Shown in pieces: positions 1 through 35,932 of a DNA stretch of 43,775 nt. Below the pieces are notes generated by a model. The model was not told the origin of the DNA. It was given only the letters and a program-made list of their open reading frames with translations, and ran no database searches. Origin of the DNA: an uncultured Methanosarcinales archaeon (GTDB lineage: Archaea; Nanobdellota; Nanobdellia; Woesearchaeales; JACPBV01); NCBI GenBank assembly GCA_964492935.1, contig CAZBLF010000005.1:1-43775 (forward strand), given 5' to 3'. Made by a program: the position numbers and the translations under genes. How positions within the stretch are numbered: position 1 is the first letter of the stretch; each line of letters opens with the position of its first letter.

Positions 1-1
1 T

Positions 2-2440
2 ATTCTTGGTGGTGGCGCTAGTGCGGTTACGTTTGGCGTTGCTTTATTTGCGATTGGTGCGGGTTTAGCGGTTGGATTAGGAGCTGTTTCTGCAATTGGG
101 CAGGGTATTGCTGCTTCAGCCGGTATCGAATCGGTTGCTAAAGATGATAAGGCGTTTGGAAAGTCTATTTTATTTTCCGTGTTGCCTGAAACTCAGGCCC
201 TTTATGGATTCTTGATTGCTATTTTATTGTTAGTTGGAGCTGGTGTGTTAGGTGCGGCTCGTTCTGGTATAACGACGGCAATGGGTGTTGTTGCTATCGG
301 TGCTGGATTGGCTGCTGGAGTTGCTGGTATCTCGGCGATTGGACAGGGTATTGCGGCATCATCTGGTATTCGTGCGGTTACTGCTAAACCTAAATCTTTT
401 GGTAAGGCGATCTTATTTTCGGTTCTTCCTGAGACGCAGGCTCTTTATGGATTTTTGATTGCTATCTTGCTTCTTGTTGGGGGCGGCATTTTAGGTGCTG
501 CTAAGGTTGGTTTATCGGTTAATGTGGGTTTGATTGCTGTGGGAGCTGGATTGGCTACTGGTTTAGCTGCGGTTTCTGCATTAGGACAGGGTTTCGCGGC
601 TTCGTCAGGTATTGAAGCTGTTTCTCGTGATGAGAAATCTTTTGGTAAATCTATTCTGTTTTCGGTTCTTCCTGAGACGCAGGCTCTTTATGGATTCTTG
701 ATCGCTATTTTATTGTTAGTTGGAGGCGGCTTATTGGGAGCGGTTAAACAAGGCATTTCGATGTCTGTTGGTTTGATTGCTATTGGTGCTGGGTTAGCTG
801 CAGGTTTGGCTGCGATCTCTGCACTTGGCCAAGGTATTGCTGCTTCATCTGGATTACGTGAAACGGCTAAGAACCCTAAGGCATTTGGTAAGTCGATTTT
901 GTTTTCGGTGTTGCCTGAAACACAGGCATTGTATGGGTTCTTGATTGCTATTCTTTTGTTAGTAGGTGGTGGAATCCTTGGCGGTTCATCTGCTAGCGGT
1001 TTGACGTCTGGTGTAGGCCTCATTGGAATTGGTGCAGGTATTGCTGTTGGTTTAGCTGCTGTCTCGGCTATCGGTCAGGGTATGGCTGCGAGTTCTGGTG
1101 TGAGTGCTACGGCGGCTGATGGAAAGATGTTTGGTAAATCTATTTTGTTTTCGGTGTTACCTGAAACACAGGCATTGTATGGATTTTTAGTTGCTGTTTT
1201 ATTCATGATTGGCGGAGGATTATTTGGTGCGGTGCAAGTCGGTATTACGACGCCGGTCGGACTTATTGTTATTGGAGCTAGCTTATCGGTGGGGATTGCA
1301 GGTATCTCTGCGATTGGACAGGGTATTGCTGCTTCGTCTGGTATTGATGCTGTTGCTGGCGATGAGAAGTCGTTTGGTAAGGCAATTTTGTTTAGTGTGT
1401 TGCCGGAAACTCAGGCATTGTATGGATTTTTAGTTGCCATTCTCTTGTTAGTGGGTGGCGGATTGTTGGGTGCGGTTAAACAGGGCATTACTTTATCAGT
1501 AGGTCTTGTTGCGATTGGAGCTGGTTTAGCAGCTGGTTTAGCTGCGGTTTCTGCACTTGGACAGGGTTTCGCGGCTTCGGCTGGTTTAGCTGCAACGGCG
1601 CGCAATCCTAAATCTTTTGGTAAATCTATCTTATTTTCGGTACTTCCTGAGACGCAGGCATTGTATGGATTCTTGATTGCTATCTTATTGTTAGTGGGTG
1701 GCGGAATCCTTGGTGCGGTGAGTAGTGGTTTAACGGTCGGTATCGGTTTAGTTGCTGTTGGAGCTGGATTAGGCGTTGGATTAAGCGCGTTCTCGGCTGT
1801 TGGACAGGGTATTGTTGCTAGTACGGCTGCAGATGTGGTTAGTACGAACGAGAAATCATTTGGTAAGTCGATCTTATTTTCGGTGTTACCTGAAACGCAG
1901 GCGTTGTATGGGTTCTTGATTGCTATTTTGCTTATTGCTTCGGGCGGTTTGATTGGAGCTGCTACTAGTGAGATTCCGATGTCTATTGGTTTGGTTTCGG
2001 TTGGTGCTGGTTTAGCTGTTGGAATTGCTGGTTTATCAGCACTTGGACAGGGTATTGCTGCTGCATCTGGTGTTGGATCGATTGCGGAGAAGGATAGTGT
2101 CTTTGGTAAATCTATCTTATTTTCGGTGTTGCCGGAGACGCAGGCATTGTATGGAATTATTATTGCTGTTTTATTATTGACTGGAGTTGGATTGTTAGGT
2201 ACACTCAAGACTGGCATTAGTTTGGTACAGGGATTGGGCGGAGTAGGAATTGGATTAACGATGGGACTTGCAGCGGTAAGTGCTGTTGGTCAAGGTATAG
2301 TGTCTGCTTCTTCGATTGGAGGGGTTGTGAGAGATAGTAAGTCTACGGGAAAGAGTTTGGTGTTAAGTGTTATTCCCGAGACATATGCAATATTTGGATT
2401 ATTGATAGCAATACTTTTGCTTATCGGACTACAATTGATA
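2..2440 (+). repeat. Intragenic tandem repeat, 243-bp period (one 246-bp unit)
   Basis: The Pro codon of the PET motif falls at 185, 428, 671, 914, 1160, 1403, 1646, 1889, 2132 and 2375. Confidence 0.95.
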
Positions 2441-2443
2441 TAG
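2..2443 (+). CDS. atpK: A/V-type ATP synthase subunit K (c, proteolipid), multi-hairpin concatemer; 5' end outside the window
   Basis: The frame is open from nt 2 (ILGGGASAVTFGVALFAIGAGLAVGLGAVSAIGQG...). It has ten ~81-aa repeats, each with helix-1 SAxGQG and helix-2 PETQALYG (the last is PETYAIFG), and lies directly upstream of atpE. Confidence 0.96.
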   Translation: MLGGGASAVTFGVALFAIGAGLAVGLGAVSAIGQGIAASAGIESVAKDDKAFGKSILFSVLPETQALYGFLIAILLLVGAGVLGAARSGITTAMGVVAIGAGLAAGVAGISAIGQGIAASSGIRAVTAKPKSFGKAILFSVLPETQALYGFLIAILLLVGGGILGAAKVGLSVNVGLIAVGAGLATGLAAVSALGQGFAASSGIEAVSRDEKSFGKSILFSVLPETQALYGFLIAILLLVGGGLLGAVKQGISMSVGLIAIGAGLAAGLAAISALGQGIAASSGLRETAKNPKAFGKSILFSVLPETQALYGFLIAILLLVGGGILGGSSASGLTSGVGLIGIGAGIAVGLAAVSAIGQGMAASSGVSATAADGKMFGKSILFSVLPETQALYGFLVAVLFMIGGGLFGAVQVGITTPVGLIVIGASLSVGIAGISAIGQGIAASSGIDAVAGDEKSFGKAILFSVLPETQALYGFLVAILLLVGGGLLGAVKQGITLSVGLVAIGAGLAAGLAAVSALGQGFAASAGLAATARNPKSFGKSILFSVLPETQALYGFLIAILLLVGGGILGAVSSGLTVGIGLVAVGAGLGVGLSAFSAVGQGIVASTAADVVSTNEKSFGKSILFSVLPETQALYGFLIAILLIASGGLIGAATSEIPMSIGLVSVGAGLAVGIAGLSALGQGIAAASGVGSIAEKDSVFGKSILFSVLPETQALYGIIIAVLLLTGVGLLGTLKTGISLVQGLGGVGIGLTMGLAAVSAVGQGIVSASSIGGVVRDSKSTGKSLVLSVIPETYAIFGLLIAILLLIGLQLI

Positions 2444-3007
2444 GTGATGAGAATGGATGGTAGCGAACATATAAAAAAGGAAATGCTTGGGGAGGCTCAA
2501 CAAGAAGTTGAGAAGATCGAGAAGGAGGTAGCTGAGAAAGTTACTAGTATGAAGAAAGAACATGCTGCTGCGCGAGAGGCGTATGAAAAACAGCGGACGC
2601 TTGAGAGTAAGCGTGCGGTGCAGCTGTTTAGCGATAAAACGTTAGCACAGTCTCGGTTGCAGGTGAAGAGAAACTACTTGATTGAGCGTGAAAAAGTGGT
2701 TGAGAGCATGGTAAAAAGTGCCGCGAGAATTAGTCATGCTGACAAGGAGTATCAGAAATTTTTGAAAGGGCTTGTGAACGAGCATAAGGGTAGTTTGGAT
2801 GGGAAGATTACGATTCACTGCAATAGCAAAGATGTTTCGTTTGTCAGCGGATTGGTTGATGGTATTGCAGTTGAGGAGGCGGATATTTCTGGTGGTATTA
2901 TCGTCGAAAATGAGGCTGGTAAGAGGATTGACGAGCAGTTATCTGAATCTATTGAACGCGGCATGGACACGATTAGGGAGGTTGTTGTTAAACACCTAGG
3001 AAAATGA
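2444..3007 (+). CDS. atpE: A/V-type ATP synthase subunit E
   Basis: N-terminal coiled coil, C-terminal ISGGIIVE motif, and operon position. The start may be ATG 2453, after GGTGA. Confidence 0.88.
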   Translation: MMRMDGSEHIKKEMLGEAQQEVEKIEKEVAEKVTSMKKEHAAAREAYEKQRTLESKRAVQLFSDKTLAQSRLQVKRNYLIEREKVVESMVKSAARISHADKEYQKFLKGLVNEHKGSLDGKITIHCNSKDVSFVSGLVDGIAVEEADISGGIIVENEAGKRIDEQLSESIERGMDTIREVVVKHLGK

Positions 3008-4038
3008 TTGACGTTACGGTACCTATGGTTGTTTCTGGTGTAACAGTAGCTAGCTTAGTAGTCATTGCTCCAATAACGAAGTATGCCCTAGATATGTATC
3101 CTTACCTGTATGCTAACACGCGCTGTGCGAGTCGTGCTGGTTTATTGTTAACGAAGAAGCATTATGATGATTTGCTGAGTGCTGGATCGATTGAAGAGGT
3201 GTATGGTGGACTGGAGGATAGTTCGTATGCTGGTATTGTTGAACATCACAAGGATTTTTTCTCGTTTTCACGGGCTTTGGAGACGGATTATGGTGAATCT
3301 TTGAAGTGGATGTTGGAGATTAGTCCGAGTGCGGTGAAACAGGTTATTGTTGCGCTTCAGAAAAGAGGCGAGATTAATACGTTGAAGGAGATTATGGGAA
3401 GATTGAAGGAAAAGCAGGAGTTGCCTTCGCTTGCTGGTATTCAGAGCGATGCGCTTCGTGTTAAGTTAGAGGGCATAAAGGATATGCAGGGCTTTCAGGT
3501 TGCATTAGAGGGAAGTAGTTATGGTTCATTATTACAGAGTCTTGATCTTGAGAAGATGGCTGAAATTAATACTTCATTAGATCGCTATTATCTTGAACAG
3601 TTACAGGATGCTATTCTTTCGGTAAAGGATGGCGATGTGAAGGCAGCTTTCACTACCTATGTTACGGTTCTCATTGATTTGTTTAATGTTCGTTTGGCTT
3701 TACGTTCAAAGGGGCAGGTTGAGTATGTTGAGGGTGGTGTGTTGGATGCCGAGGCGTTAGCAGGTGCAACGGATGCTACTCAACTAGAATCGGTCTTTGC
3801 TTCAAGTGTGTATGGCGAAGGCATGAATGGTTTTTCGATGTCGAAACTTGAGCAGGCGTTCTTTGAATATTTAAGGAAGCAGGCCGAGGTGATTGGGGTT
3901 AAGTATACTCTTAAAGCGGGGATGTTGCTTCGCTATCTTATTCAAAAGGAAATTGAGATTAGGAATGTGAACACACTTGTTAAATTAAAGTCGGAGGGGT
4001 TTGATGCGGATGCCATCAGATCGTATGTGGTGATATAA
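3004..4038 (+). CDS. atpC: A/V-type ATP synthase subunit C (d), with a hydrophobic N-terminus
   Basis: YLYANTR, IDLFNVRLALR and KEIEIRNV motifs; ATGA overlap with atpE. Confidence 0.9.
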   Translation: MIDVTVPMVVSGVTVASLVVIAPITKYALDMYPYLYANTRCASRAGLLLTKKHYDDLLSAGSIEEVYGGLEDSSYAGIVEHHKDFFSFSRALETDYGESLKWMLEISPSAVKQVIVALQKRGEINTLKEIMGRLKEKQELPSLAGIQSDALRVKLEGIKDMQGFQVALEGSSYGSLLQSLDLEKMAEINTSLDRYYLEQLQDAILSVKDGDVKAAFTTYVTVLIDLFNVRLALRSKGQVEYVEGGVLDAEALAGATDATQLESVFASSVYGEGMNGFSMSKLEQAFFEYLRKQAEVIGVKYTLKAGMLLRYLIQKEIEIRNVNTLVKLKSEGFDADAIRSYVVI

Positions 4039-4331
4039 TGGAGATAGGGATATTAGCAGATCAGGATACGCTGATGGGTTTTCGGGTAGCTGGCGTTACG
4101 AGAAGCGCTCTCTACAATCCAGAGACGTTGAAAGAGGACTTGAAACAGTTGGATGATGTGGCTATTCTTTTGGTTACGGAAAAGGTGGCTGTGGAAATTA
4201 GGAAATTAGATGTTACGATTACGCCGGTACTGGTGGACGTTCCGGATAAGGACGGAAGTACTGGAAATGCATTATTAGAAATAGCTAGATTGTACGAAGA
4301 GGCAATTGGTGTAAAACTCAAGGAGAACTAG
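4038..4331 (+). CDS. atpF: A/V-type ATP synthase subunit F
   Basis: IGILADQDTLMGFRVAGV and PVLVDVPD motifs; TAATG coupling to atpC. Confidence 0.93.
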   Translation: MEIGILADQDTLMGFRVAGVTRSALYNPETLKEDLKQLDDVAILLVTEKVAVEIRKLDVTITPVLVDVPDKDGSTGNALLEIARLYEEAIGVKLKEN

Positions 4332-4343
4332 GAGGGAAATACA

Positions 4344-6104
4344 ATGGTAGAAGGAATAATCATTAAAATATCAGGACCTGTTGTTGTTGCAAAAGACATG
4401 GCAGGGGTAAAGATGTACGAGGTTGTACGTGTCGGAAAGGAGGGTCTTATCGGCGAAGTTATTGAGCTGTTTAAGGATAAGGCTACGATCCAGGTCTACG
4501 AGGAAACTTCGGGCATGGAGCCGGGCGAGAAGGTTGTGTCGCAGGGGCAATCGTTGTCGGTTGAGCTAGGACCAGGCATTATGGGTAATATCTATGACGG
4601 TATTATGCGACCGTTGAAGCAGATTCAGAAGAAATCGGGTGCGTTTATGGCCCGAGGGATTGACGCTGATGCAATTGACCATAAGAAGAAATGGAAGTTT
4701 GTTGCTACAGCTAAAAAGGGTGACAAGGTAACTCCAGGACAGATTATTGGTGAGGTTGCTGAAACGTCTGCGGTTGTGCATAAGATTATGATCCCGCCGC
4801 GTGTTTCGGGTGAGATTAAGCGTATTGCTAAATCTGGTGAACATACGGTGACTTCTAGTATCGCTACTATTAAGACTGCGGATGGGGATGTTGAGGTTCA
4901 ACTATCTCAGAAATGGCCTGTAAGAAATGCAAGACCTGTAGCTTCGAAAGAGGAGCCTACGATTCCTTTGATTTCTGGACTACGTATCTTGGATACGTTT
5001 AATCCGGTTGCTAAAGGGGGAACTGCAGCTACGCCGGGTGCATTTGGTACTGGAAAAACGGTTACTCAGCAATCACTTGCAAAATGGAGTGATGCAGATA
5101 TTATTGTTTACATTGGATGTGGTGAACGAGGTAATGAGATGACTGATGTTCTGAAAACATTCCCTGAATTGGTTGATCCGCGATCTGGAAAGCCGTTGTT
5201 AGAACGAACAGTTATTATTGCTAACACGTCGAACATGCCGGTTGCTGCAAGAGAGGCTTCGGTATACACCGGTATTACGATAGCTGAATATTTCAGAGAT
5301 ATGGGATATGATGTTGCGCTGATGGCAGATAGTACTAGTCGATGGGCAGAAGCTATGCGTGAGATTTCCTCTAGGTTGGAGGAGATGCCAGGTGAGGAAG
5401 GATATCCAGCTTACTTGTCGACTCGATTAAGTCAGTTTTACGAGCGAGCTGGTAGAGTTAAGCCGCTAGGTGGTGGATCTGGTTCGGTAACTATTATTGG
5501 GGCTATTAGTCCCCCTGGTGGAGACTTTTCGGAACCGGTGACACAGAATACGTTGCGTGTTAACAAGACGTTCTGGGCCTTGGATAAGTCACTTGCATCA
5601 CGAAGACACTTTCCAGCTATTAACTGGTTGACCTCGTATTCGTTGTATTTAGAGACGTTAACGGCGTGGTTTAATGAGCATTCTGGTAGTGATTGGAGAC
5701 AGATGCGTGATACTGCTATGGAATTGTTGCAGAAAGAGGAACAATTGCAGGAGATTGTGCAGTTGGTTGGACCGGATGCGTTGCCAGACAATGAGAGAAT
5801 CATTTTGGAAGTTACGAAGATGTTGCGAGAGGATTTCTTGCAGCAGAATGCGTTCCACGATGAGGATGCGTACTGTCCGATTGAGAAGCAGTATCTGATG
5901 CTGAAGATTATTCTTGAGTTTAATGAAATGGCTCAGGCAGCATTGGAGAAAGGTGGTAAGACTGAAGCGATTGCTAAGATTGAGGTTAAGCAGAAGATTG
6001 CTCGAATGAAGGAAGCTAAGAATGCTACGTTTGGGGATCATTACAAGGAGATGAAAGCCGAAATGAGCTCACAGTTTTCAAAAATCGGAGGTGATGCACA
6101 ATGA
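4344..6104 (+). CDS. atpA: A/V-type ATP synthase catalytic subunit A
   Basis: Walker [18 protein letters not shown] and [17 protein letters not shown] Shine-Dalgarno (SD). Confidence 0.98.
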
Positions 6105-7483
6105 GTAAAGGAGTAGAGTATACTAGTATTCAGGAGATTGCAGGACCTCTTTTGATTGTAGAAGATGTTAAGGATGTTGCCTTTGGGGAACTTGTTGAGA
6201 TTAAGCTTGCGAATGGTGATAAAAGGACTGGTCAGGTTTTGGAGGCTCGAGATGACTTAGCGGTTGTGCAGGTGTTCGAGGGAACTCGAGATCTTGCAAC
6301 GAAGGATATTTCTGTTCGTTTCACAGGAGAGACGATGAAGATTGGGTTATCTAAGGACATTATTGGTCGTATTTTCAATGGAGTAGGTAAGCCTATCGAC
6401 GGTGGACCGGCTATTATTCCGGAGAAGCGAGTGGACGTGAATGGATTGCCTATTAATCCTACGGCGCGAGAATTTCCGGATGAGTTCATTCAGACTGGTG
6501 TAAGCACGATTGATGTGATGAATACTTTGGTTCGTGGTCAGAAATTGCCTATCTTTTCGGAAGCAGGATTGCCGCATAACGAGCTTGCTGCTCAGATTGC
6601 GCGTCAGGCTAAGGTTAAGGGTGATGGTGGTAACTTCGCAGTTGTGTTTGCAGCTATGGGTATCACGTTTGAGGAAAGTCAGTTCTTTATGAAGGATTTC
6701 GAGCGGACTGGTGCCATTGAAAACATGGTTGCTTTCATGAATCTGGCAGACGATCCAGCAATTGAGCGTATTATTACACCTCGTATTGCTTTGTCTGCAG
6801 CTGAATATCTTGCATTTGAGCACGATATGCATATTCTGGTAATATTGACTGATATGACCAATTATTGTGAATCGTTGCGAGAAATTGCAGCGGCTCGAAA
6901 CGAGATTCCTGGTCGTCGTGGTTATCCGGGATACATGTATACGGACCTGGCTATGAATTACGAGCGTGCTGGTAAGATCAAGGGCAAGAAGGGTTCTGTA
7001 ACTCAGATTCCGATCTTGACGATGCCGCAAGGTGATATTTCACATCCGATTCCAGACTTGACGGGATATATTACTGAGGGTCAGATTGTGTTGTCTAAGG
7101 AATTGCATACGAAGGGTATCTATCCTCCGATTAATCCGTTGCCATCTCTTAGTCGTTTAATGAACGAGGGGATTGGTGAAGGTAAAACTCGAGATGATCA
7201 CTCCGGTGTTTCGAATCAGCTGTATACGGTGTATGCAGAAGGTAATGACCTGCGAGACTTGGTTGCGGTTGTTGGTGAGGAAGCTCTATCGGATAGAGAT
7301 AAGACGTTCTTGAAGGGCGCTGAGGCGTTTGAGAGTAACTTTGTGACGCAATCTAAGGACGATAACCGGGATATTGATGCATCCATTGCTATTGGATGGG
7401 ATATCTTCAAATTGATTCCTAAAGCTGAGTTGAAGAAGCTTAAACAGGAACATATTGATGAGAACTTGGGTAAGGGTGAATGA
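6101..7483 (+). CDS. atpB: A/V-type ATP synthase subunit B
   Basis: [24 protein letters not shown] and THP-like [15 protein letters not shown] motifs. Confidence 0.98.
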
Positions 7484-7529: not shown

Positions 7530-8153
7530 ATGGCATCTAAACTGCAGGCGGCAACTCGAATGGAGATGCTGCGGCTTAAGAAGAAGGCTAAGCTAGCTCA
7601 GAAAGGTCACAAATTGCTGAAGGAAAAGCGAGATGCTCTTATTTCGGAGTTCTTTTCTTTTATTGATAAGTTAAAGGCGATTAGAACGGAGATGGAAGGT
7701 AAGCTTGCGAGTGCATACAAATCTCTTATCTTGGCTCAGGCTTTGTCTGGGGCAGCTGAGATTGAGCGGGCTGCATTAGCTTCGAGCGCTGCGTATTCGA
7801 TTGAATCCTCTACTAGTAATATCATGGGTGTTGAGGTGCCTGCGTTCACGGCTGAAGAGAAGAGTTCGGAGGCTGGGTACAGTAAATTATCACCTTCTTT
7901 GGAATTGGATGAGGCAGTTACTAATTTTAAGGAGGCTCTTGCGATTATTATTACCTTGGCTAGTGCTGAGGCTACGGTTCGTAAATTGGCTGCTGAAATT
8001 AAGAAGACGAAAAGGAAAGTGAATGCTTTGGAGAGAATTTTGATTCCTCGGATTAATAACGATATTATCTACATTAAGGTTCGATTAGAGGAGATGGAGC
8101 GAGAGAATTTTGCTCGATTGAAGGTCGTTAAAAGACGTATTGAAGCTCAATAA
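7530..8153 (+). CDS. atpD: A/V-type ATP synthase subunit D
   Basis: TRMEMLRLK, GHKLLKEKRDAL, KTKRKVNALE and LEEMERENF motifs. Confidence 0.97.
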   Translation: MASKLQAATRMEMLRLKKKAKLAQKGHKLLKEKRDALISEFFSFIDKLKAIRTEMEGKLASAYKSLILAQALSGAAEIERAALASSAAYSIESSTSNIMGVEVPAFTAEEKSSEAGYSKLSPSLELDEAVTNFKEALAIIITLASAEATVRKLAAEIKKTKRKVNALERILIPRINNDIIYIKVRLEEMERENFARLKVVKRRIEAQ

Positions 8154-12395: not shown

Positions 12396-13076
12396 CTAAC
12401 TCATGAACAGTCTGATAACTTCCATTACCTCCTGGACATCAGTTATCTCGCCGGATTTTAATTTAGAAAGGACACCCATAACTTCTGGAAGATCAAACTT
12501 GCCGTCTGAATCTGTGTCGAACTGGGTGAGTTCTGGAGCCAGGTTTGATTCACACTCCAGCTCAAGTGCGCATGCTGGGTTGGTGCAGTCAATATTCGAT
12601 AGGTCGCAGGCATCTTCATCCTCACAATCTGTGCATAATGCCTCTTGATTTTCTATTTCATTACAGACCTGGTCAAAGTTACAAACTAAGGGCATATCGC
12701 AGGAATCTGGGTCTGTACAGGCAGGATCTCGGTATGGGTTGGAATCAATAACAAATTCTCCTCCTTTTTGGAAAAAACTTACCTTTCCCTTGATTTGATC
12801 TCCTGAGGATGGTGAATCAGAGAGCTCATAGGTTATCTTGCTAGGAAGACCATTCCCAATAACCAAGTCTTCGATTGTTTGTGGAGGATTAACTGCATAG
12901 ACGGCGAAGATGTTACTCCCAGACTTAAGGACCGTGTCAGTTATTTCATCGTCATCGATGTATGCTTTGAACGAACCTGGAACTATCTCTACGGAAGTCT
13001 CTGCTACTGATTCTGAAAGTATCATAATTTCGTTGTAATCAAACTGATTCCTGTCGTATTCGAAGTAAATAGTCAC
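12396..13076 (-). pseudogene. Probable 5'-truncated surface/secreted protein with Cys-rich repeats and a C-terminal EF-hand/dockerin-like loop
   Basis: Cys-rich segment followed by DTDSDGKFDLPEV. There is no signal peptide or ATG start, and the frame runs into the opposing ORF. Confidence 0.5.
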
Positions 13077-13364: not shown

Positions 13365-14408
13365 TTATACTAAAACTATATTCTCGCTTTTTATGATGAC
13401 TTTGTTTCTTTTTCCTTTCAACGCTTTCACTTCATCTGCATTATAGTCTACAACACCTTTCGCGATGTTATTTATTTTAACGATATCGTTTTTCTTGAAG
13501 TTGCCTTCAACGCTGTCTATTCCGATGGCTAGGAGGCTTACTTTTCCCTCTTTTAGGATGTCATGGGCGCATTCGTTTATTTTTATCTTTCCTCGTTCTT
13601 TTGCGAATTTGATGAAACGTTGTTTCGCTGAGAGTTTTGCTGCAGGAGTGAAGTGTGTTCCTGCTTGCCCTGTTAATGCGTTCTTGATGGCCTCCTTTTT
13701 TGTTCCATTCGCTATGACCATTTCAAATCCTGATTGCATTGCTATCTTTGCAGCTTTAATTTTGGTGAGCATGCCGCCAATAGCGAATGCAGATCCTGAT
13801 TTTCCAGCTGCTTTTTCAATTTCTTTTGTTATTTTGGTAACGTTTCTGATGAGTTTTGCATCTTTGTTTGTTTTTGGATTCTTATCGTATAATCCATCGA
13901 TATCTGATAACATTAAGAGGGTGTCGGCATTTACTTTTGACGCTACTAAAGCAGACATTTTGTCATTATCTCCAAAATTGGTTCCAATCTCTTTGGTTGA
14001 GATGGGATCGTTCTCGTTGATGATGGGGATGACGTTTAATTCTAAGAGTTTGTTTATGGTGTTTCTTAGGTTTAGGTACTTATTACGGTCTGAGAAATCT
14101 TCATACGTTACTAGAATCTGGGCTACGTTGATGTTGTGTTGAGAGAATGCGTCGTGATAGTGGCGCATGACCATGCTTTGTCCTATAGCTGCTAATGCTT
14201 GTTGTGTTTTTAATTCTCTAGTCTTCTTTGTCTTTAATTCTAATGCGCCTGCTCCAATAGCTCCAGAGGTGATGATGATGATTTCGTGTTTGTTCTTATG
14301 AAGTTCTGCAATTTGTTTGGTGAGTTGTTTGATGATGGTTGTGTTTAATCCTATTAATTTCTCTGTCAGTACATTTGTTCCTATCTTGATGACTATTCGT
14401 TTCGGCAT
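13365..14408 (-). CDS. proB: Glutamate 5-kinase with PUA domain
   Basis: RIVIKIGT, TSGAIGAG, PIINEND, FGDNDKMSA and GGMLTK motifs. Confidence 0.96.
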   Translation of the reverse strand: MPKRIVIKIGTNVLTEKLIGLNTTIIKQLTKQIAELHKNKHEIIIITSGAIGAGALELKTKKTRELKTQQALAAIGQSMVMRHYHDAFSQHNINVAQILVTYEDFSDRNKYLNLRNTINKLLELNVIPIINENDPISTKEIGTNFGDNDKMSALVASKVNADTLLMLSDIDGLYDKNPKTNKDAKLIRNVTKITKEIEKAAGKSGSAFAIGGMLTKIKAAKIAMQSGFEMVIANGTKKEAIKNALTGQAGTHFTPAAKLSAKQRFIKFAKERGKIKINECAHDILKEGKVSLLAIGIDSVEGNFKKNDIVKINNIAKGVVDYNADEVKALKGKRNKVIIKSENIVLV

Positions 14409-14559
14409 GGGTTGGATGTTAGTTTAGTGTTTTTAAAAGTAGTGGTGCTCGAACTTCTTTTTGTCGCGAGTTGAGGACAAATTTTCGAAGAAAGGCTTAA
14501 ATATGTGGTTTATTCGTTGTTCTTATGCATTTTTTTCTAAGCGCATGGAGGCGGTTGTT

Positions 14560-15609
14560 ATGAATAGTAGACCAGAGGTAGCACGATTAGCAGTCTATGG
14601 AGCAGGTATTAAGGATGGTGATGGTTCTAGTGAGAATCCTATTGTGGCAACGAGTCCAGTAGATCAGATTAAATATGCTAAAGATATGGGTTTTAGTGCT
14701 GTGCAGTTGAATATTTCTCCAGGTGACCTCGAGGGAGCTGATTTAGATTCTTTTGCGGAGGAGATTGAAGATGCTTCTCGAGCGCATGGCGTCTACATTG
14801 TTGGTTTTGGGAGTGGGAGTCCCGGACCGTGGATTTTTGATTCTAATGAAAAGGGTTTCGATGATGCTAGAAGGTATGCTAGGGAAGGTACAGGTTTCAT
14901 TGATGTGAAAACTCATCCCGTTACAGGTGAAGATGCTCCTGAATCGTGGCTATTTGAAAATAAAGTTATGGCTGCAAATGAAATTATTGAAATTGGGGGC
15001 AGAGTTGGACAGGGCCGTGTTTTTAGTGCGCATGCAGGTCACTTTCTTGATGAGTATGGTTCAAGTGATGGTCAGGAAGCTTCTCAACACGAAAAAGATA
15101 ATTATGAAATGATTAGGGAAGCCCTTAACTCCTTTGCTGATACTTCTCGTGATGAGGGTATGTATATTGGTATTGAAACTGGGCCTGATACCCTTAGGGC
15201 GATGACGCATACTACAGATATTGATGACGAGAGTTTGTTATACCAATTTGATACTGCCAATGAGGCAATCTGAGGTAACCCGGCGGATTATCTTGTGATG
15301 TTGGGATATCTTAAGGCGACGAACAAGATTGTTTCGGTTCATCTTAAGGGTCAGGCTGCTTTAGAAGGGGATGTTTCTGAAGGTTCCTGGCAGGCGAGAG
15401 AGGTTGATCTTGATGACGGAGATAATCGTGTCGATCTGGATCAGGTTTTGTACCATGTTAGAGATATTGTAACGCCGTTTGGAGATCCTGTTTCGTTAAG
15501 TATTGAGGGGGAGGTTCCTGCAAAGAGTTTGAGTGATCGGATTGAGGCGTTATCTAGAGTGAGAGCTTTTGTTGAAGGGAGAATGAATCATGTTGGAGGG
15601 TATCAGTAG
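14560..15609 (+). pseudogene. Xylose isomerase-like TIM-barrel (sugar phosphate isomerase/epimerase) interrupted by an in-frame TGA at 15271-15273
   Basis: ORFs 14461-15273 and 15295-15609 share a frame. The E (IETG), D (FDTAN), H (VHLK) and E (SIEGE) metal motifs span the stop. GGAGG SD precedes ATG 14560. Confidence 0.72.
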
Positions 15610-15621
15610 TTTTATTTTTAT

Positions 15622-16227
15622 TCAATCGACTAAGAACTCTTTAACGTGGCGGAGGTGTCTCTTTTCATCTGCAAAGAACCATCCGTCGCCGACAACGTCG
15701 CTAAAGCCGTTTTCGTGGTAGACTACAGGTAGGATGCGGTTTCTCATTGTTTTTTCTCCTCTTCCTTCTATTGGAGCTACCTTGAATGTTCCCTTATCGA
15801 GAGGGTGTATTCCTTGGGCACTGAAATCTGTTTCCTCGCTTTTTGCTAGTAGGGCGAGATAGAGGTCAACATGATCTGGTCCTTCTCTATCCACTCTTAG
15901 TAAATAGGGATGCGTCTCTCCGTTATCGGTGCTTGCGGTGCCCATTACCATCTCGGAGAGTTTGGAATTCACCAATTTCGTGTCGTAATCTTCAACTGCT
16001 TTGCGACGTATGGCGTTAAAGTCTGCATCGTCTGGATGTTGTTGCAATAGCTTCATCAGTTCTTCGCTTTGTTGAGGTGTGAGATCTCCAAAGTTACCAA
16101 GATCCCCTTTCCGTAGCGCTGTTGCTGATTTGACGGTAAGATGATCACTAAGCGCTTTTATTTTACTTTTTGCTTCAGGTTCGGTGATGTGTGGAGCAGC
16201 TGAGTAATATGTGTGTGAATAAGCCAT
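15622..16227 (-). CDS. Hypothetical protein
   Basis: 201-aa ORF with an ATG start and an upstream TTTAAAAA TATA box. Confidence 0.7.
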   Translation of the reverse strand: MAYSHTYYSAAPHITEPEAKSKIKALSDHLTVKSATALRKGDLGNFGDLTPQQSEELMKLLQQHPDDADFNAIRRKAVEDYDTKLVNSKLSEMVMGTASTDNGETHPYLLRVDREGPDHVDLYLALLAKSEETDFSAQGIHPLDKGTFKVAPIEGRGEKTMRNRILPVVYHENGFSDVVGDGWFFADEKRHLRHVKEFLVD

Positions 16228-16269
16228 ACCTTCAAGAATCAGAGTGCTTTTTTAAATCTTATACTTTTT

Positions 16270-17583
16270 TTATTTCTTCTTATGTGTAAATTTCTTTTTG
16301 CCTTTGGCGTAGTCGTCTACGATGTGGTCGATGCCGCGGAGAATGAATTTTGTTATTACTAGGCCTTCTAAGCCAACGGGACCGCGCGCATGGACTTTAT
16401 TTGTGGAGATACCGACTTCGGCGCCTAGGCCGTATCTGAAGCCGTCTGCGAATCTTGTAGATGCATTGTGGACTACTGAGGATGAGTCAACGAAATTGAT
16501 GAACATTTGAGCTTCTGCTTTTTCTTCGGTTACGATGGCGTCGGTGTGATGGGATCCATGCTTGTTGATGAAGTCTACGGCTTCGTTGATGGTATCTACT
16601 ACTTTGATTGAGATGATTTCTTCGTTGTACTCGGTTTTCCAGTCTTTTTCTGTTGCTTTGTGGATTTCTCGTAGTGGAATGGTCTTATTCTTCTTGATGA
16701 TGTTGAATGATTTGCTATCTGCGCGAACTTCGACGCCCATTTTCAGAAAGGTGTTAGTGATTTTTGGGATAAATTCTTGAGCTGCATCTTTATGGACCAC
16801 TAGGTTTTCCATTGCATTACAGACAGCTGCGTACTGGGTTTTCGAATCTACGGCGATCTTCATTGCTTTATTGATGTCGGCGTGCTTGTCTACATAGACG
16901 TGGCAGATGCCATCGGCATGGCCTAATACTGGAATCTTGGTATTGCTCTGGATGTATTTTACTAATTCGTTGGATCCTCTGGGTATTAGGAGATCGATGA
17001 AGTCGTCCATTTTGAGGACTTGCTTTACTTCCTCACGTGTTTCTAGTAATTGTACGGTGTCGGCAGGCATGCCTTGGTTGTCTTCGATGGAGGTTCGGAT
17101 GACTTCTACTAGTGCTAGATTTGAATTGAGTGCTTCTTTTCCTCCTTTGAGTAAGACTGCATTCCCGGATTTTATTGCTAATGCTGCTATTTGCACTACG
17201 ACTTCTGGTCTCGATTCGAAGATGCAGCCGATGACTCCGATGGGCACGGTTATTTTTTGTAAGGTGAGTTCTTCATCTAATTCCATCTCGGAGATGGTTT
17301 TTCCGGTGGGATCTTCTTGTTTTGCAACACTTCTCACCATGTCGCACATTTCTTTTATCTTTGCGTCGTTGATTTCTAATCGTTTGAGCATTGCTGCAGG
17401 TAGTTTTTTGTTTGCGCTTAGGTCCTTTTTATTTGCGGCTATGATTTGTTTGCTGTTCTTCTTCAGATCATCTGCTAATTCGTCTAGAACGATGTTTTTT
17501 ACGTCGGTATTTACTGCTGCGATTTGTAAAGCAGCTTCTTTAGCACGCTCACACTGATTAAGAACGGTTTCTTTTAATGACAT
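16270..17583 (-). CDS. proA: Gamma-glutamyl phosphate reductase
   Basis: IFESRP, KSGNAVLLKGG, IPRGS, VCNAME and GLGAEVGISTNKVHARGPVGL motifs. Confidence 0.97.
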   Translation of the reverse strand: MSLKETVLNQCERAKEAALQIAAVNTDVKNIVLDELADDLKKNSKQIIAANKKDLSANKKLPAAMLKRLEINDAKIKEMCDMVRSVAKQEDPTGKTISEMELDEELTLQKITVPIGVIGCIFESRPEVVVQIAALAIKSGNAVLLKGGKEALNSNLALVEVIRTSIEDNQGMPADTVQLLETREEVKQVLKMDDFIDLLIPRGSNELVKYIQSNTKIPVLGHADGICHVYVDKHADINKAMKIAVDSKTQYAAVCNAMENLVVHKDAAQEFIPKITNTFLKMGVEVRADSKSFNIIKKNKTIPLREIHKATEKDWKTEYNEEIISIKVVDTINEAVDFINKHGSHHTDAIVTEEKAEAQMFINFVDSSSVVHNASTRFADGFRYGLGAEVGISTNKVHARGPVGLEGLVITKFILRGIDHIVDDYAKGKKKFTHKKK

Positions 17584-18938: not shown

Positions 18939-19988
18939 TTATACATTATTCGCGGGGTTTTGGTCAGTATTAGTACCGAGAATGATTCTTGCAACGTTTC
19001 TTGTTTCACGAGTCATGATCTTCATGGAGTCTACGATTCTGCTTTCTACGATAAAGGACCGGGGTTTAATCTTATCTTTTTCTCCCTTGAGGTATTGATT
19101 AATGTAGGATTCGAATCCATTGTCGAGTTCCTGAAGTAGCTTTCTGGTACTTACCTCAATATCAAGTGCGATGGCTTTGTTGGTGGCGTAGTAGGCCTTC
19201 ATCGCATCGAGGTAGCGTTGTTGGATGACTTGGAATAATTCGCAGAGTATTCTTTTGGGTTTGCCGACAAGCATGATGTTTAGGAGATCCTTTGCTATGC
19301 TCTTGGCTTGGTCGGCGATGCGTTCGATGCGGATGGTGAGGCTGCGATGGTCTTGTAATTCTACTGGAGTCATGCCGATTTTGCTTTGATAGGCTGGATT
19401 CTCCATTGCTCCGCGTACCACCCTGTATGCGAGAAAGTGAAGTCTATTGACGTCCTCATCGCGATTGTCGATGTTGGTGACGAGCTCTCTTTGCTCTGGC
19501 TCCTTATTTTTCCCCTCGAGAGCGAGGCAGGTGAGAGTATCTTCGATCATGGAGCGCGTAATGATGTCGACTCTTCTGACAATGGTTTTAATGGAGACCT
19601 CGTTGATATCCATGAGGTCTTTTGCGATAATCTTGTATGCAGTTTGTTCTAGAATTTCCATTCCGGAAAGACTGAGTAATTCATTGATGATCGCTCTTGC
19701 GTCGGTGATGATGCTTTTGCTTACAATTCTGATGGCGGAGTAATTTTGGAGGTAGGCGGTAAAAATGAGGGCCTTAGTCATCTCGTGTGTTTTCTTATCG
19801 GCGTCTATGGTGATGGACTTTACCTCTTTTGGAGCGGAGGTGTGCAGGGGCGCGATAATCAGCGTATTATCGTTCTGGTCAACGTCGACGGTATCCCCCT
19901 TTTGGATTTTTTGTTTGCTTGACCAGCTCTTGGGTAGCGTGATGGCTAGAGAATTCTTCCCAAACCCGATTACCTTTCTGGATTCCAT
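18939..19988 (-). CDS. AbrB/SpoVT-PhoU family regulator
   Basis: RKVIGFGKNSLAITLPKSW...GDTV AbrB N-terminus; PhoU-like DEDVNR and IERIAD motifs. Confidence 0.88.
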   Translation of the reverse strand: MESRKVIGFGKNSLAITLPKSWSSKQKIQKGDTVDVDQNDNTLIIAPLHTSAPKEVKSITIDADKKTHEMTKALIFTAYLQNYSAIRIVSKSIITDARAIINELLSLSGMEILEQTAYKIIAKDLMDINEVSIKTIVRRVDIITRSMIEDTLTCLALEGKNKEPEQRELVTNIDNRDEDVNRLHFLAYRVVRGAMENPAYQSKIGMTPVELQDHRSLTIRIERIADQAKSIAKDLLNIMLVGKPKRILCELFQVIQQRYLDAMKAYYATNKAIALDIEVSTRKLLQELDNGFESYINQYLKGEKDKIKPRSFIVESRIVDSMKIMTRETRNVARIILGTNTDQNPANNV

Positions 19989-20399: not shown

Positions 20400-20786
20400 A
20401 GAGGGTTTTGATGTTCAGCGATCGTTACGATGGTTGTGAGTTAAGACTTAATAGATGGATGCTTAGATACAAAATGAGGTGTTTTGAAATGGCACCTCTT
20501 CAAATACGTCAGAGGTGGTTTGCATGATCGTATGTAGAGAGGGGATGTGTGTTGATTTGGAGAAGATGGGAATTTTGGATGACGAACAAAGCGAGATGGT
20601 TGTGTAATCAGAGGTGATGGCATGGAATCGGACTATTGGATGGAATTGTATCTTAACTTTACCTTGAATACGGCAGGGGAGGAGTTATCGGATAAGTAGA
20701 GGGCGTTGGGTCGGGATTAAAATTTCGACCTGAGTGTGCTCTGAAAACAAACATATTTAAATAACGGTCGGATAACATTATTTTTG

Positions 20787-21713: not shown

Positions 21714-22165
21714 GCGGTAAAACATTGCGGATAGCTGCGATTAAAGAGGGTACGGTGATTGACCATATTCCTGCTGAAAAGATCTTTTCTGTTGTTCGCT
21801 TTTTGAAATTGGATAAAGCAAGCGGTCCGGTCTCGGTTGCCACAAACTTGATGAGTAAGTTGCTCGGTAAGAAAGGTGTTATCAAGATTTCGGGTCGAGA
21901 GTTAACGTCGGTTGAGGTTGAGGAGATTGCTTTATTGGCTCCGGAGGCGACGATTAACATTATCAAGGAGTATGATGTGGCACAGAAGCGGCAGGTTACG
22001 TTGCCGAAGCAGATTAAGGGGTTTGTCTGTTGTATGAATCCGAATTGTATTACGAACAAGCAGCCGGTTTCTACTCGGTTTTCTGTGAAAAATCAGGATG
22101 GATTGAAATTGAAGTGTAGTTATTGTGAACGCGAGATGGGGCAGCGGCAAATACGGATTATATGA
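21710..22165 (+). CDS. pyrI: Aspartate carbamoyltransferase regulatory subunit
   Basis: IKEGTVIDHI; Zn ligands CMNPNC...CSYC. Confidence 0.96.
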   Translation: MSGKTLRIAAIKEGTVIDHIPAEKIFSVVRFLKLDKASGPVSVATNLMSKLLGKKGVIKISGRELTSVEVEEIALLAPEATINIIKEYDVAQKRQVTLPKQIKGFVCCMNPNCITNKQPVSTRFSVKNQDGLKLKCSYCEREMGQRQIRII

Positions 22166-35857: not shown

Positions 35858-35932
35858 TTTCAAACTATTAGTTACTATTGGGAAGGCACAATCTTTTTTA
35901 AACCTATCTTGAATCTCTCTCAGAAAACGCTA

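What the first reader, a model, noticed from the sequence alone, without database searches (positions are those of the whole stretch)
2..2443. Candidate single-polypeptide c-ring: ATP synthase subunit K with 10 or more fused ion-binding hairpins
Seen: one open frame with ten 81-aa c-subunit hairpins, all keeping the essential Glu. The first residues (ILGGG) are an inter-hairpin linker, so at least one more unit lies upstream. Known: c/K subunits normally have 1-3 hairpins and oligomerise, and the 13-hairpin Methanopyrus kandleri subunit is the classic exception. The helix-1 Q plus helix-2 E-T-Q..Y match the Na+-site ligands of Enterococcus hirae NtpK. Inference: the whole rotor is one protein with genetically fixed ion/ATP stoichiometry, probably Na+-coupled, in a DPANN-like archaeon. 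It may be an independent origin of a monomeric rotor.
Basis: partly seen in the sequence, partly recalled or inferred. Interest (0 to 1): 0.92.

Follow-up and report, generated by a model that had tools for sequence, protein, structure and literature searches.

The report
Single-chain 13-hairpin ATP synthase rotor
A tiny marine DPANN archaeon encodes the whole membrane rotor ring of its ATP synthase as one protein of 13 fused hairpins, 12 of them with a sodium-type ion site, a design described in print only for Methanopyrus kandleri.

Summary

The window starts at a contig end. The 5' part lies at the end of contig C14: subunit I, a 60-residue tail, then 3 hairpins. Public contigs from four runs bridge the two pieces directly. 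The gene is 1109 codons with 13 hairpins, like the intact genes of relatives.

Hairpin 1 lacks both site residues (Ala and Gln in place of Gln and Glu). That leaves 12 Na+-type sites, or 4 ions per ATP if one chain closes the ring.

A rule links each Glu to a Tyr in the preceding hairpin. It wraps from the last hairpin to the first, which argues for ring closure. An AlphaFold model has pTM 0.82, but its coordinates could not be inspected.

The internal hairpins expanded separately from those of Methanopyrus. The operon type is spread patchily across 12 family codes of the order (Woesearchaeota/Nanoarchaeota labels).

A monomeric ring and Na+ coupling remain inferences. This scan had already noted the same design on other genomes. 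I found no paper describing it outside Methanopyrus.

The parts
2..2443 (+). 3' part of the subunit K (atpK/ntpK) gene: residues 297-1109 of the 1109-residue protein, hairpins 4-13, plus the stop codon. The 5' part is on G000 contig C14, 25878-26777.
   Evidence: Open frame. Pfam ATP-synt_C in 10 stretches. In-frame join with C14.
20..262 (+). hairpin 4 (Gln helix 1; E-T-Q..Y)
263..505 (+). hairpin 5 (Gln; E-T-Q..Y)
506..748 (+). hairpin 6 (Gln; E-T-Q..Y)
749..991 (+). hairpin 7 (Gln; E-T-Q..Y)
995..1237 (+). hairpin 8 (Gln; E-T-Q..Y). The linker before it is one residue longer.
1238..1480 (+). hairpin 9 (Gln; E-T-Q..Y)
1481..1723 (+). hairpin 10 (Gln; E-T-Q..Y)
1724..1966 (+). hairpin 11 (Gln; E-T-Q..Y)
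1967..2209 (+). hairpin 12 (Gln; E-T-Q..Y)
2210..2440 (+). hairpin 13, the last (Gln; E-T-Y..F). It keeps its own Glu but lacks the Gln and Tyr that would serve the blank site of hairpin 1.
2444..3007 (+). subunit E (peripheral stalk)
   Evidence: Pfam vATP-synt_E, E 4.5e-9
3004..4038 (+). subunit C (AC39/d, the socket on the ring)
   Evidence: Pfam vATP-synt_AC39, E 3.4e-37
4038..4331 (+). subunit F
   Evidence: Pfam ATP-synt_F, E 6.9e-13
4344..6104 (+). catalytic subunit A
   Evidence: Pfam ATP-synt_ab and flanking domains. In the A-subunit tree it groups with the other multi-hairpin genomes.
6101..7483 (+). subunit B
   Evidence: Pfam ATP-synt_ab, E 2.2e-77
7530..8153 (+). subunit D (central stalk)
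   Evidence: Pfam ATP-synt_D, E 5.5e-60

Best explanation
The frame is the larger part of the subunit K (proteolipid c) gene of an A-type rotary ATP synthase/ATPase of a marine Woesearchaeota-type DPANN archaeon. The whole gene spans the end of contig C14 and window 2-2443.

Shown by sequence: it encodes one 1109-residue chain. The chain has a 60-residue N-terminal tail rich in N-X-S/T sequons, then 13 two-helix hairpins joined by short Gly-rich linkers.

Inferred mechanism:
- One chain folds into the complete 13-hairpin (26-helix) rotor ring, so ring size is fixed by the gene.
- Each ion site is built from Glu (helix 2) and Gln (helix 1) of hairpin n, plus Thr, Gln and Tyr of hairpin n-1.
- Hairpin 1 has Ala and Gln instead of Gln and Glu, and hairpin 13 has lost the matching Gln and Tyr. 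The site at the seam where the chain ends meet is therefore blank.
- The ring carries 12 Na+-type sites, which gives 12 ions per turn and 4.0 per ATP.
- The tail lies outside the cell.

The direction of work is open. No respiratory or other primary Na+ pump was found in the 85%-complete genome except a membrane pyrophosphatase. ATP-driven Na+ export in a fermenting symbiont is therefore at least as likely as ATP synthesis.

The blank first hairpin is inherited from ordinary 2-hairpin V-type K subunits. The 11 internal hairpins arose by amplification within this lineage, separately from the Methanopyrus array.
For: Gene identity and operon:
- Pfam ATP-synt_C matches 10 stretches in the window and 3 on C14.
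- NCBIfam names it V-type ATP synthase subunit K.
- The operon order is I-K | E-C-F-A-B-D, preceded by a 102-aa ORF with no Pfam match.
- tblastn found no other K-like gene in G000.

One gene of 13 hairpins:
- The C14 end and the window start share 13 bases, in frame, giving 1109 codons.
- In each of four runs, a 778-base public contig covers window 1-445 with no difference and runs 333 bases further upstream. Its paralogous fits show 6 and 4 differences.
- The last 333 bases of C14 before the overlap reproduce exactly those 6 and 4 differences. The next-best offset gives 59.
- All 13 of 13 hairpins are best matched by the same-numbered hairpin of the intact same-genus gene.
- Nine of the 10 intact relatives' genes have 13 hairpins: G001, G022, G032, G078, G330, G348, G045, G261 and G268. 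G317 has 12.

Selection: dN/dS against G001 is 0.06 overall and 0.03-0.10 per unit, blank hairpin included.

Site pattern and Na+ motif:
- The pattern is shown.
- It meets the published Na+ criterion of Gln/Glu in helix 1 and E[STQ][STQ]xxY in helix 2 (passages).
- It aligns to NtpK (2bl2) so that NtpK's G-T-Q..Y, A-Q-G and E-T-Y match the blank-type, helix-1 and last-type motifs.

Ring closure:
- In 124 multi-hairpin K proteins, 36 of 36 internal hairpins without Glu follow a hairpin without Tyr. 826 of 839 hairpins with Glu follow one with Tyr.
- The same link wraps from the last hairpin to the first in 21 of 21 thirteen-hairpin rows: 15 are blank/no-Tyr and 6 are Methanopyrus-type Glu/Tyr.
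- Controls with hairpin n+1 or the same hairpin show no such link.
- These rows are kin, and 3 are duplicates.

Ring size:
- The fused 12-hairpin proteins P0017, P0019 and P0030 read as two 6-hairpin units in tandem.
- Solved V/A rings of single hairpins have 12 chains per entry (132 chains in 11 entries).

Fold:
- AlphaFold2 with an 18-row alignment, run on the intact G001 ortholog (93% identical), gives pLDDT 80.4 and pTM 0.82, with the tail disordered.
- Two adjacent hairpins of the model superpose on NtpK at rmsd 1.4 over 152 columns.

Origin:
- In the careful hairpin tree, the 33 internal DPANN hairpins form one side of a branch (98/90), Methanopyrus hairpins 2-13 another (97/85), the first hairpins another (100/96) and the last hairpins another (91/90).
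- Pairing the 11 internal hairpins by position with Methanopyrus is rejected (delta lnL 305, p-AU 3e-66).
- The blank hairpin 1 of the 2-hairpin K of same-family genomes clusters with hairpin 1 of the 13-mers (SH-aLRT 99).

Habitat: the four laid runs are labelled marine, aquatic or hydrothermal-vent metagenomes.
Against: - No experiment or inspectable structure shows that one chain closes the ring. The tools return no coordinates, so the distance between hairpins 1 and 13 in the model is unknown. The single-sequence model was useless (pLDDT 41).
- The seam rule holds equally for head-to-tail contact between two chains, as must happen in the 6-hairpin forms.
- The counts behind the rule are not independent events.
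- The four runs that bridge the contig gap are each flagged as a possible source of this DNA. They confirm the reads, not a second population.
- Ion specificity is read from a motif only.
- AU tests of single positional clades could not reject orthology with Methanopyrus: last hairpins p 0.54, hairpin 2 p 0.33. Concerted evolution after a shared origin would give the same tree.
- The groups tested were named after I had seen the tree.
- Some database 12-hairpin proteins equal a 13-hairpin protein minus exactly one unit. Unit counts from short-read assemblies can therefore be wrong by one.
Confidence: 0.7

Rival explanations
1. The 13-hairpin chain is real, but two or more chains assemble head to tail into a larger ring of 26 hairpins and 24 sites. 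The gene would then not fix a 13-hairpin rotor.
For: The seam rule (last hairpin without Tyr next to a blank first hairpin) is also obeyed by 6-hairpin proteins, 71 of 72 rows, whose seam must lie between chains. The solved E. hirae K ring holds 10 chains of 2 hairpins, or 20 hairpin equivalents (50 chains in 5 entries). A/V rings larger than 13 hairpins therefore exist.
Against: Chain lengths cluster at 6, 12 and 13 hairpins. Three 12-hairpin proteins are tandem copies of the 6-hairpin pattern. This points to a ring of 12-13 hairpins in all these lineages. A 26-hairpin ring would exceed any ring seen in the PDB listing. The count of 13 is kept across 63-93% identity, as expected if the number itself matters.
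Confidence: 0.1
2. The same single-chain ring works with protons, not Na+. The motif would be a relic, or would bind H+/H3O+ in vivo.
For: Ion choice is inferred from sequence only. The papers read say that Na+ ligands are partly kept in some H+ enzymes (passages of PMC2359735) and that borderline motifs exist. The membrane pyrophosphatase of the genome passes the NCBIfam cut-offs of both a 'sodium-translocating' and an 'H(+)-translocating' model, so it does not settle the coupling ion.
Against: Twelve sites keep the complete ligand set, in every relative examined. Where a site is given up, its Tyr partner decays at once (36 of 36), so the ligands are under selection as a set. The DNA occurs in marine and vent metagenomes.
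Confidence: 0.15
3. The long chain is cut after translation, or translated from internal starts, into single or few-hairpin subunits that then form an ordinary oligomeric ring.
For: Nothing in the data excludes processing. No protein-level evidence exists for any multi-hairpin K of this kind. Even the Methanopyrus case is 'deduced from its sequence' (title as cited).
Against: The linkers are short Gly-rich turns like the uncut loop of 2-hairpin K subunits. No Met recurs at unit boundaries. The first and last hairpins are specialised as chain ends and conserved as such across 2-, 6-, 12- and 13-hairpin forms. That would be pointless if the units were released as equal pieces.
Confidence: 0.04
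4. The array is an assembly artefact or a decaying pseudogene.
For: The gene is split over two contig ends of a metagenome-assembled genome. One-unit collapses do occur in database entries.
Against: The units are only 47-77% identical in DNA. There is no stop in 1109 codons. dN/dS is 0.06. Other assemblies hold intact collinear genes on contigs of up to 636 kb. Separately assembled public contigs bridge the gap.
Confidence: 0.01

Closest known systems
Methanopyrus kandleri A-ATP synthase subunit K (1021 aa, 13 hairpins; Lolkema & Boekema 2003, seen only as cited in PMC2359735, PMC10839748 and bioRxiv 10.64898/2026.10.01.756066)
   Same: One gene, 13 hairpins of about 80 residues, Na+-type ligands, and a position between subunits I and E of an A-type operon. 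Relatives from Methanopyrus (P0028, P0031) match the window protein at 49-50% identity.
   Different: The Methanopyrus-type proteins keep Glu, Gln and Tyr in all 13 hairpins and have no blank seam and no N-terminal tail. Their hairpins 2-13 form their own clade, and positional orthology with the window protein is rejected. They give 13 sites (4.3 ions per ATP, as stated) against 12 here (4.0).
Enterococcus hirae V-type Na+-ATPase subunit NtpK (PDB 2bl2), and the 2-hairpin K of same-family Woesearchaeota genomes (G009, G010)
   Same: NtpK is the best solved relative by sequence (E 5e-14) and by fold (TM 0.88 to the chain, rmsd 1.4). The layout of the chain ends is the same: a first hairpin without the carboxylate but with T-Q..Y, and a last hairpin with Gln in helix 1 and E-T-Y. 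The blank first hairpin is homologous.
   Different: NtpK has 2 hairpins and 1 site per chain, with ten chains per solved ring. Here 11 complete hairpins lie between the two end hairpins, and a single chain is ring-sized.
Six-hairpin K subunits of Methanomicrobiales, Undinarchaeota and Thermoplasmata (database entries P0046-P0120; no paper found), and their 12-hairpin tandem forms
   Same: The first (blank) and last hairpins are orthologous. The seam rule is the same, and so is the Na+-type motif.
   Different: These have 6 hairpins and 5 sites, presumably two chains per ring. Their internal hairpins form separate clades. Some carry N-terminal PKD domains instead of the short tail.
Methanocaldococcus jannaschii triplicated K subunit (3 hairpins), as described in PMC2359735. 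That it has two sites is my recall.
   Same: A fused multi-hairpin A-type proteolipid.
   Different: It has only 3 hairpins and must oligomerise. I did not analyse it here.

Membership tests
A/V-type ATPase proteolipid subunit K/c (Pfam PF00137) | Match to the ATP-synt_C hairpin model above the curated cut-off | tested here: met
   540 bits against a cut-off of 24, with 10 stretches in the window. 166.9 bits with 3 stretches on C14. NCBIfam V-type ATP synthase subunit K models are above their cut-offs.
A/V-type ATPase proteolipid subunit K/c (Pfam PF00137) | Position in an A-type operon between subunit I and subunits E, C, F, A, B, D | tested here: met
   Subunit I (V_ATPase_I) ends where K starts on C14. 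E, C, F, A, B and D follow K in the window.
A/V-type ATPase proteolipid subunit K/c (Pfam PF00137) | Ion-carrying carboxylate in the middle of helix 2 | tested here: met
   Glu is present in 12 of 13 hairpins. Hairpin 1 has Gln.
Single-polypeptide rotor ring of the Methanopyrus kandleri kind | A ring-sized number of hairpins (13) in one uninterrupted reading frame | tested here: met
   1109 codons without a stop after the in-frame join. The join is confirmed by public contigs. Nine intact 13-hairpin genes were found in relatives.
Single-polypeptide rotor ring of the Methanopyrus kandleri kind | Every hairpin keeps a complete ion site (13 sites) | tested here: not met
   Hairpin 1 has Ala and Gln, and hairpin 13 has Tyr and Phe in place of Gln and Tyr. 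This leaves 12 sites.
Single-polypeptide rotor ring of the Methanopyrus kandleri kind | Common descent of the 13-unit array (hairpin i orthologous to hairpin i) | tested here: not met
   The identity matrix shows no diagonal, 1 of 13. The positional tree is rejected, p-AU 3e-66. Single-clade AU tests were not decisive.
Single-polypeptide rotor ring of the Methanopyrus kandleri kind | One chain closes the ring | tested here: inconclusive
   The seam rule wraps from the last hairpin to the first in 21 of 21 rows, and AlphaFold pTM is 0.82. No coordinates could be inspected, and the rule also fits contacts between chains.
Na+-binding c/K subunits (sequence criterion of bioRxiv 10.64898/2026.10.01.756066, section 2.3; Mulkidjanian et al. 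2008) | Glu in helix 2, Gln or Glu in helix 1, and E[STQ][STQ]xxY in helix 2 (in multi-hairpin chains the T-Q..Y comes from the neighbouring hairpin) | tested here: met
   Hairpins 2-12 carry the whole motif. Hairpin 13 has Gln and Glu and borrows T-Q..Y from hairpin 12. The motif aligns to the NtpK ligand positions.
Na+-binding c/K subunits (sequence criterion of bioRxiv 10.64898/2026.10.01.756066, section 2.3; Mulkidjanian et al. 2008) | Na+ dependence of binding, transport or activity | not testable with these tools
   This needs biochemistry.
V-type 2-hairpin, 1-site K subunit (E. hirae NtpK type) | Four helices (2 hairpins) and one site per chain | tested here: not met
   The chain has 13 hairpins and 12 sites. 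Only the two end hairpins follow the NtpK pattern.

The most novel reading that the evidence does not exclude
A second single-chain rotor ring, evolved independently of the Methanopyrus one, exists in Woesearchaeota-type DPANN archaea. In this reading the ring size is frozen at 13 hairpins, while the number of working ion sites is set by point knock-outs: Glu to Gln, with loss of the partner Tyr. Relatives carry 12, 11, 10 or 9 live sites. The ion/ATP ratio would thus be shifted from 4.0 to 3.0 without changing the ring. The whole operon would move between lineages, since two genera hold both operon types, letting tiny symbionts swap 'gearboxes' to suit their energy budget.
Probability: 0.4. 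Interest if true: 0.8.

Novelty: new variant of a known kind. Interest (0 to 1): 0.62.

Why it matters
The ion/ATP ratio of a rotary ATP synthase is set by the number of sites in its c-ring. What fixes ring size is an old open question, because normal rings self-assemble from many copies.

A ring written out in one gene removes that uncertainty. Stoichiometry can be read from the sequence, each hairpin can be mutated on its own, and the blank seam gives a built-in angular marker for single-molecule and cryo-EM work.

The family found here also offers natural variants with 12, 11, 10 and 9 live sites on the same 13-hairpin scaffold. These are a ready-made series for testing how site number and blank steps affect torque, coupling and direction.

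It also shows that the 'unique' Methanopyrus design arose more than once and travels as an operon among DPANN archaea. The field's reviews still list only M. kandleri.

Tried and rejected
- A single-sequence AlphaFold run of the intact ortholog gave pLDDT 41 and pTM 0.33, which is uninformative.
- The better model could not be checked for ring closure, because no coordinates reach the script box.
- Foldseek against the PDB found only 2-hairpin chains, with no match at E <= 0.001.
- AU tests of single positional clades with Methanopyrus were not decisive (p 0.54 and 0.33). A third test did not finish in time.
- My first regular-expression count of hairpins miscounted. I replaced it with HMM segmentation.
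- Assembly-expanded repeat: rejected.
- Extra units hidden between C14 and C5: rejected.
- Window bases 1196-1500 had no contig laid on them. This says nothing either way.
- The internal blank hairpins of relatives (positions 6, 9, 10) might have been fossil chain seams. I rejected this because they keep Gln in helix 1 and group with internal hairpins, not with the first-hairpin clade.
- Searches of the own genome for Rnf/Nqr, oxaloacetate decarboxylase beta, complex I/Mrp antiporter-like subunits and haem-copper oxidase found nothing in an 85%-complete genome.
- The rhodopsin search rang in no control genome, so it shows nothing.
- Six literature searches found no description of multi-hairpin K subunits in DPANN or Woesearchaeota.
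- I did not use complex prediction. Any two hairpins would be expected to pack, so a pass would not separate the rivals.
Full report
**What is in the window**

Window 2-2443 (+) is an open frame of 813 codons with no start; it runs off the 5' end. A 243-base tandem period covers it. Pfam ATP-synt_C matches ten times, E 3.7e-166.

The next genes are subunits E (2444-3007), C (3004-4038), F (4038-4331), A (4344-6104), B (6101-7483) and D (7530-8153) of an A/V-type ATPase.

I built a hairpin HMM from the 13 units of an intact ortholog. It cuts the frame into ten units of 81 residues, 77 for the last. All ten have Gln in helix 1 and Glu in helix 2.

**The missing 5' part**

The window is the first 43,775 bases of contig C5 of a 1.15-Mb, 57-contig genome, 84.8% complete. 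tblastn of the frame against that genome finds only one other place, the last 700 bases of contig C14.

C14 ends with the following:
- a 102-aa ORF with no Pfam match;
- subunit I (647 aa, V_ATPase_I);
- a K start codon overlapping the subunit I stop;
- a 60-residue tail;
- three hairpins, running open to the contig end.

C14's last 13 bases equal the window's first 13. Joined there, the frame is continuous: 1109 codons, 13 hairpins.

Three results support a direct join with nothing missing.

1. Each of the 13 hairpins is most similar to the same-numbered hairpin of the uninterrupted gene of a same-genus genome (G001, 93% identical; 13 of 13 on the diagonal).
2. In each of four public runs, a 778-base Logan contig covers window 1-445 without a difference and continues 333 bases upstream. 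That upstream part gives paralogous fits at window 635-684 (6 differences) and 1129-1195 (4 differences).
3. The 333 bases of C14 before the overlap give exactly 6 and 4 differences at those places. The next-best offset gives 59 in total.

The four runs are each flagged as a possible source of the DNA. This is therefore a second assembly of reads, not an independent population.

**Real gene or artefact**

- The units are 47-77% identical in DNA (median 67%), and the longest exact repeat is 38 bases.
- Against G001, dS is 0.80 and dN 0.048 (ratio 0.06). Every unit lies between 0.03 and 0.10, including hairpin 1.
- Intact genes lie inside long contigs of other assemblies.

An assembly-expanded repeat or a pseudogene is excluded.

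**The blank hairpin and the seam rule**

Hairpin 1, on C14, has Ala where the others have the helix-1 Gln, and Gln where they have Glu. The last hairpin keeps its own Gln and Glu but has Tyr and Phe where the others have Gln and Tyr.

The published sequence criterion places the Glu on one hairpin and the [STQ][STQ]xxY on the neighbouring one in double-hairpin subunits (passages of bioRxiv 10.64898/2026.10.01.756066). The alignment to E. hirae NtpK shows the same split.

I tested this across 124 multi-hairpin K proteins. They were the 120 listed hits, three genome-derived copies, and the joined protein. Rows with a truncated unit were dropped.

- Every internal hairpin without Glu (36 of 36) follows a hairpin without the Tyr.
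- 826 of 839 hairpins with Glu follow one with the Tyr.
- Hairpin n+1 and the same hairpin show no such link.
- The rule wraps around. In 15 of 15 thirteen-hairpin rows of the DPANN type, the first hairpin is blank and the last has no Tyr.
- In 6 of 6 Methanopyrus-type rows, the first has Glu and the last has Tyr.

The rows are related, and three are duplicates. G001 equals P0002. G022/P0005 and G032/P0003 share length and tail. The counts therefore overstate independent events. However, the replacing residues differ between lineages (Met, Phe, Ser, Ala, Asn).

The rule means that the last hairpin sits next to the first, so the array closes on itself. It cannot say whether the neighbour belongs to the same chain.

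**One chain per ring?**

Indirect evidence favours it.

- Complete chains cluster at 6, 12 and 13 hairpins.
- Three 12-hairpin proteins read as two 6-hairpin patterns in tandem (Q-E5-Q-E5). This implies a 12-hairpin ring made of two 6-hairpin chains.
- Solved V/A rings of single hairpins have 12 chains per entry, and the E. hirae ring has 10 chains of two hairpins.
- The count of 13 is kept in 9 of the 10 intact relatives' genes.
- AlphaFold2 with an 18-row alignment, run on the intact G001 protein, gives pLDDT 80.4 and pTM 0.82 over 1109 residues, with only the tail disordered.
- Adjacent hairpins of the model superpose on NtpK (rmsd 1.4 over 152 columns).

I could not read the coordinates, so closure in the model is unverified. 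I put the monomeric ring at about 0.75.

**Consequences**

With one chain per ring there are 12 Na+-type sites per turn and 4.0 ions per ATP. This compares with 4.3 inferred for M. kandleri.

Relatives keep 13 hairpins but differ in live sites:

| Live sites | Genomes |
|---|---|
| 12 | G000, G001, G022, G348 |
| 11 | G032, G078, G261, G268 |
| 10 | G330 |
| 9 | G045 |

Every loss is Glu to Gln, together with loss of the partner Tyr.

**Host and direction of work**

- Same-order genomes with this gene carry the labels Nanoarchaeota, Candidatus Woesearchaeota or Nanobdellota.
- The four laid runs are marine, aquatic and vent metagenomes.
- In the own genome I found a membrane pyrophosphatase. 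NCBIfam names it sodium-translocating, which is a name and not a test.
- I found no Rnf/Nqr, oxaloacetate decarboxylase beta, complex I/Mrp-type subunit or haem-copper oxidase. The genome is 85% complete.

The enzyme may therefore run mainly as an ATP-driven Na+ pump. This is inference.

**Origin**

In the careful hairpin tree (76 rows, 79 columns), four groups each form one side of a branch:
- the 33 internal hairpins of three DPANN 13-mers (98/90);
- Methanopyrus hairpins 2-13 (97/85);
- the first hairpins of the 6-, 12- and 13-hairpin forms (100/96);
- their last hairpins (91/90).

I named these groups after seeing the quick tree.

Forcing the 11 internal hairpins of the window protein to pair by position with those of Methanopyrus P0028 costs 305 log-likelihood units (p-AU 3e-66). 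Weaker single-clade constraints were not rejected. Complete concerted evolution after a shared origin cannot be excluded.

The blank first hairpin groups with the blank first hairpin of the ordinary 2-hairpin K of same-family genomes. It is therefore inherited, not a new loss.

**Distribution**

In 401 genomes sampled from the order, 150 have a K match. Thirteen of these, in 12 family codes, have the multi-hairpin gene.

The 12 other such genomes are exactly the 12 best matches of the window's A subunit (68-79% identity). Same-family genomes reach only 62-64%.

In an A-subunit tree of 27 rows, the 13 multi-hairpin genomes form one side of a branch (100/99). I left out three unpublished genomes.

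Two genus codes (g172, g155) contain both operon types. The operon type is thus a lineage of its own, spread patchily, most simply by operon transfer.

Among 185,579 species genomes, 20 loci have K matches of at least 2,800 bases. Ten carry Woesearchaeota-type labels. The others are labelled Thermoplasmata, Methanobacteriota, Thermococci, Undinarchaeota and Methanopyri.

The tallies include four unpublished genomes (G005, G145, G220, G325). No specific claim rests on them.

**Literature**

- Passages of PMC2359735 and of the October 2026 preprint 10.64898/2026.10.01.756066 name only M. kandleri for 13 hairpins.
- PMC10839748 cites Lolkema & Boekema 2003 in its reference list.
- PMC3639240 and PMC9171764 were seen as search listings only.
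- Passages of bioRxiv 10.1101/2023.04.11.536006 discuss loss and transfer of the ATP synthase in DPANN, but not K architecture.
- Six searches found no description of multi-hairpin K in DPANN.
- I did not read Lolkema & Boekema 2003 itself. I opened no supplementary files.

Earlier notes of this scan describe the same 13-hairpin design and the 6-hairpin relatives on other genomes. I re-derived their main points here.

**Verdict**

This is a real and complete single-gene rotor. It is a new variant of the Methanopyrus kind: a blank seam, 12 sites, an extracellular tail, a separate origin and a mobile operon. It is common in databases but not in print. Interest 0.62.

Noticed in passing
G000 contig C14 25878-26057 (N-terminal tail of K); also P0001-P0019: The tail before hairpin 1 is rich in N-X-S/T sequons: 3.9 per 100 residues against 0.13 in the hairpin body, over 54 proteins. 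The own tail has 2 in 62 residues. AlphaFold predicts it to be disordered. This suggests an extracellular, possibly N-glycosylated tail, one per ring. Some 12-hairpin and 6-hairpin relatives carry a signal-peptide-like start and a folded or PKD domain there instead.
   Followed up: partly
P0010 vs P0005; P0015 vs P0012: Two database 12-hairpin proteins are 100% identical to a 13-hairpin protein except for a clean 81-residue deletion of one unit. This is either assembly collapse or real unit-number polymorphism. It means 12-hairpin counts from short-read assemblies, such as G317, need checking.
   Followed up: partly
P0028 (Methanopyrus sp., 1021 aa): Hairpins 6, 9 and 12 read P-E-T-R instead of P-E-T-Q, a period-3 pattern also seen in P0025, P0027, P0031, P0033 and P0035. 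This sits oddly with the statement in PMC2359735 that all 13 hairpins keep the complete Na+ ligand set.
   Followed up: no
P0052, P0055, P0056 (561 aa); P0044; P0029: Apparently complete 7-hairpin K proteins have blanks at hairpins 1 and 5. There is also a 9-hairpin form and a 12-hairpin form with blanks at 1, 7 and 10. Multi-hairpin K architecture is more varied than 6, 12 and 13.
   Followed up: no
G201 vs G261 (genus code g172); G330 vs G169, G236, G392 (g155): Genomes of one genus code carry different ATPase operon types, 13-hairpin against 1-2-hairpin K, with A subunits on opposite sides of a 100/99 branch. This implies recent operon replacement.
   Followed up: partly
G000 contig C2 144-2087 (L130): A membrane-integral pyrophosphatase (885 bits to H_PPase; NCBIfam 'sodium-translocating pyrophosphatase' above its cut-off) is the only other primary ion pump I found in this genome.
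   Followed up: partly
L053 and L058: Two records labelled 'uncultured Methanosarcinales archaeon' carry the Woesearchaeota-type 13-hairpin K at 76% and 65% identity. Their contig lengths equal those of P0005 and P0012. The organism labels look wrong. L070, a 5-kb contig with a multi-hairpin K, is labelled Halanaerobiaceae bacterium and is probably mis-binned.
   Followed up: no
window 20784-24124 and 28157-28855: There is a pyrimidine biosynthesis cluster (pyrB, pyrI, a dihydroorotase-like amidohydrolase, a phosphoribosyltransferase) with OMP decarboxylase nearby. Glutamate 5-kinase with a PUA domain and an aldehyde dehydrogenase lie at 13365-17583. This is more biosynthesis than is often assumed for DPANN.
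   Followed up: no
window 33428-35863 (-), 12396-13076 (-), 15622-16227 (-): An 810-aa ORF and two ORFs of about 200 aa have no Pfam match at E <= 1e-5. Two proteins with a MazE/AbrB-like N-terminus lie at 18939-19988 and 32508-33431, the first also with a PhoU domain. A MoxR AAA plus VWA pair lies at 38809-41005.
   Followed up: no
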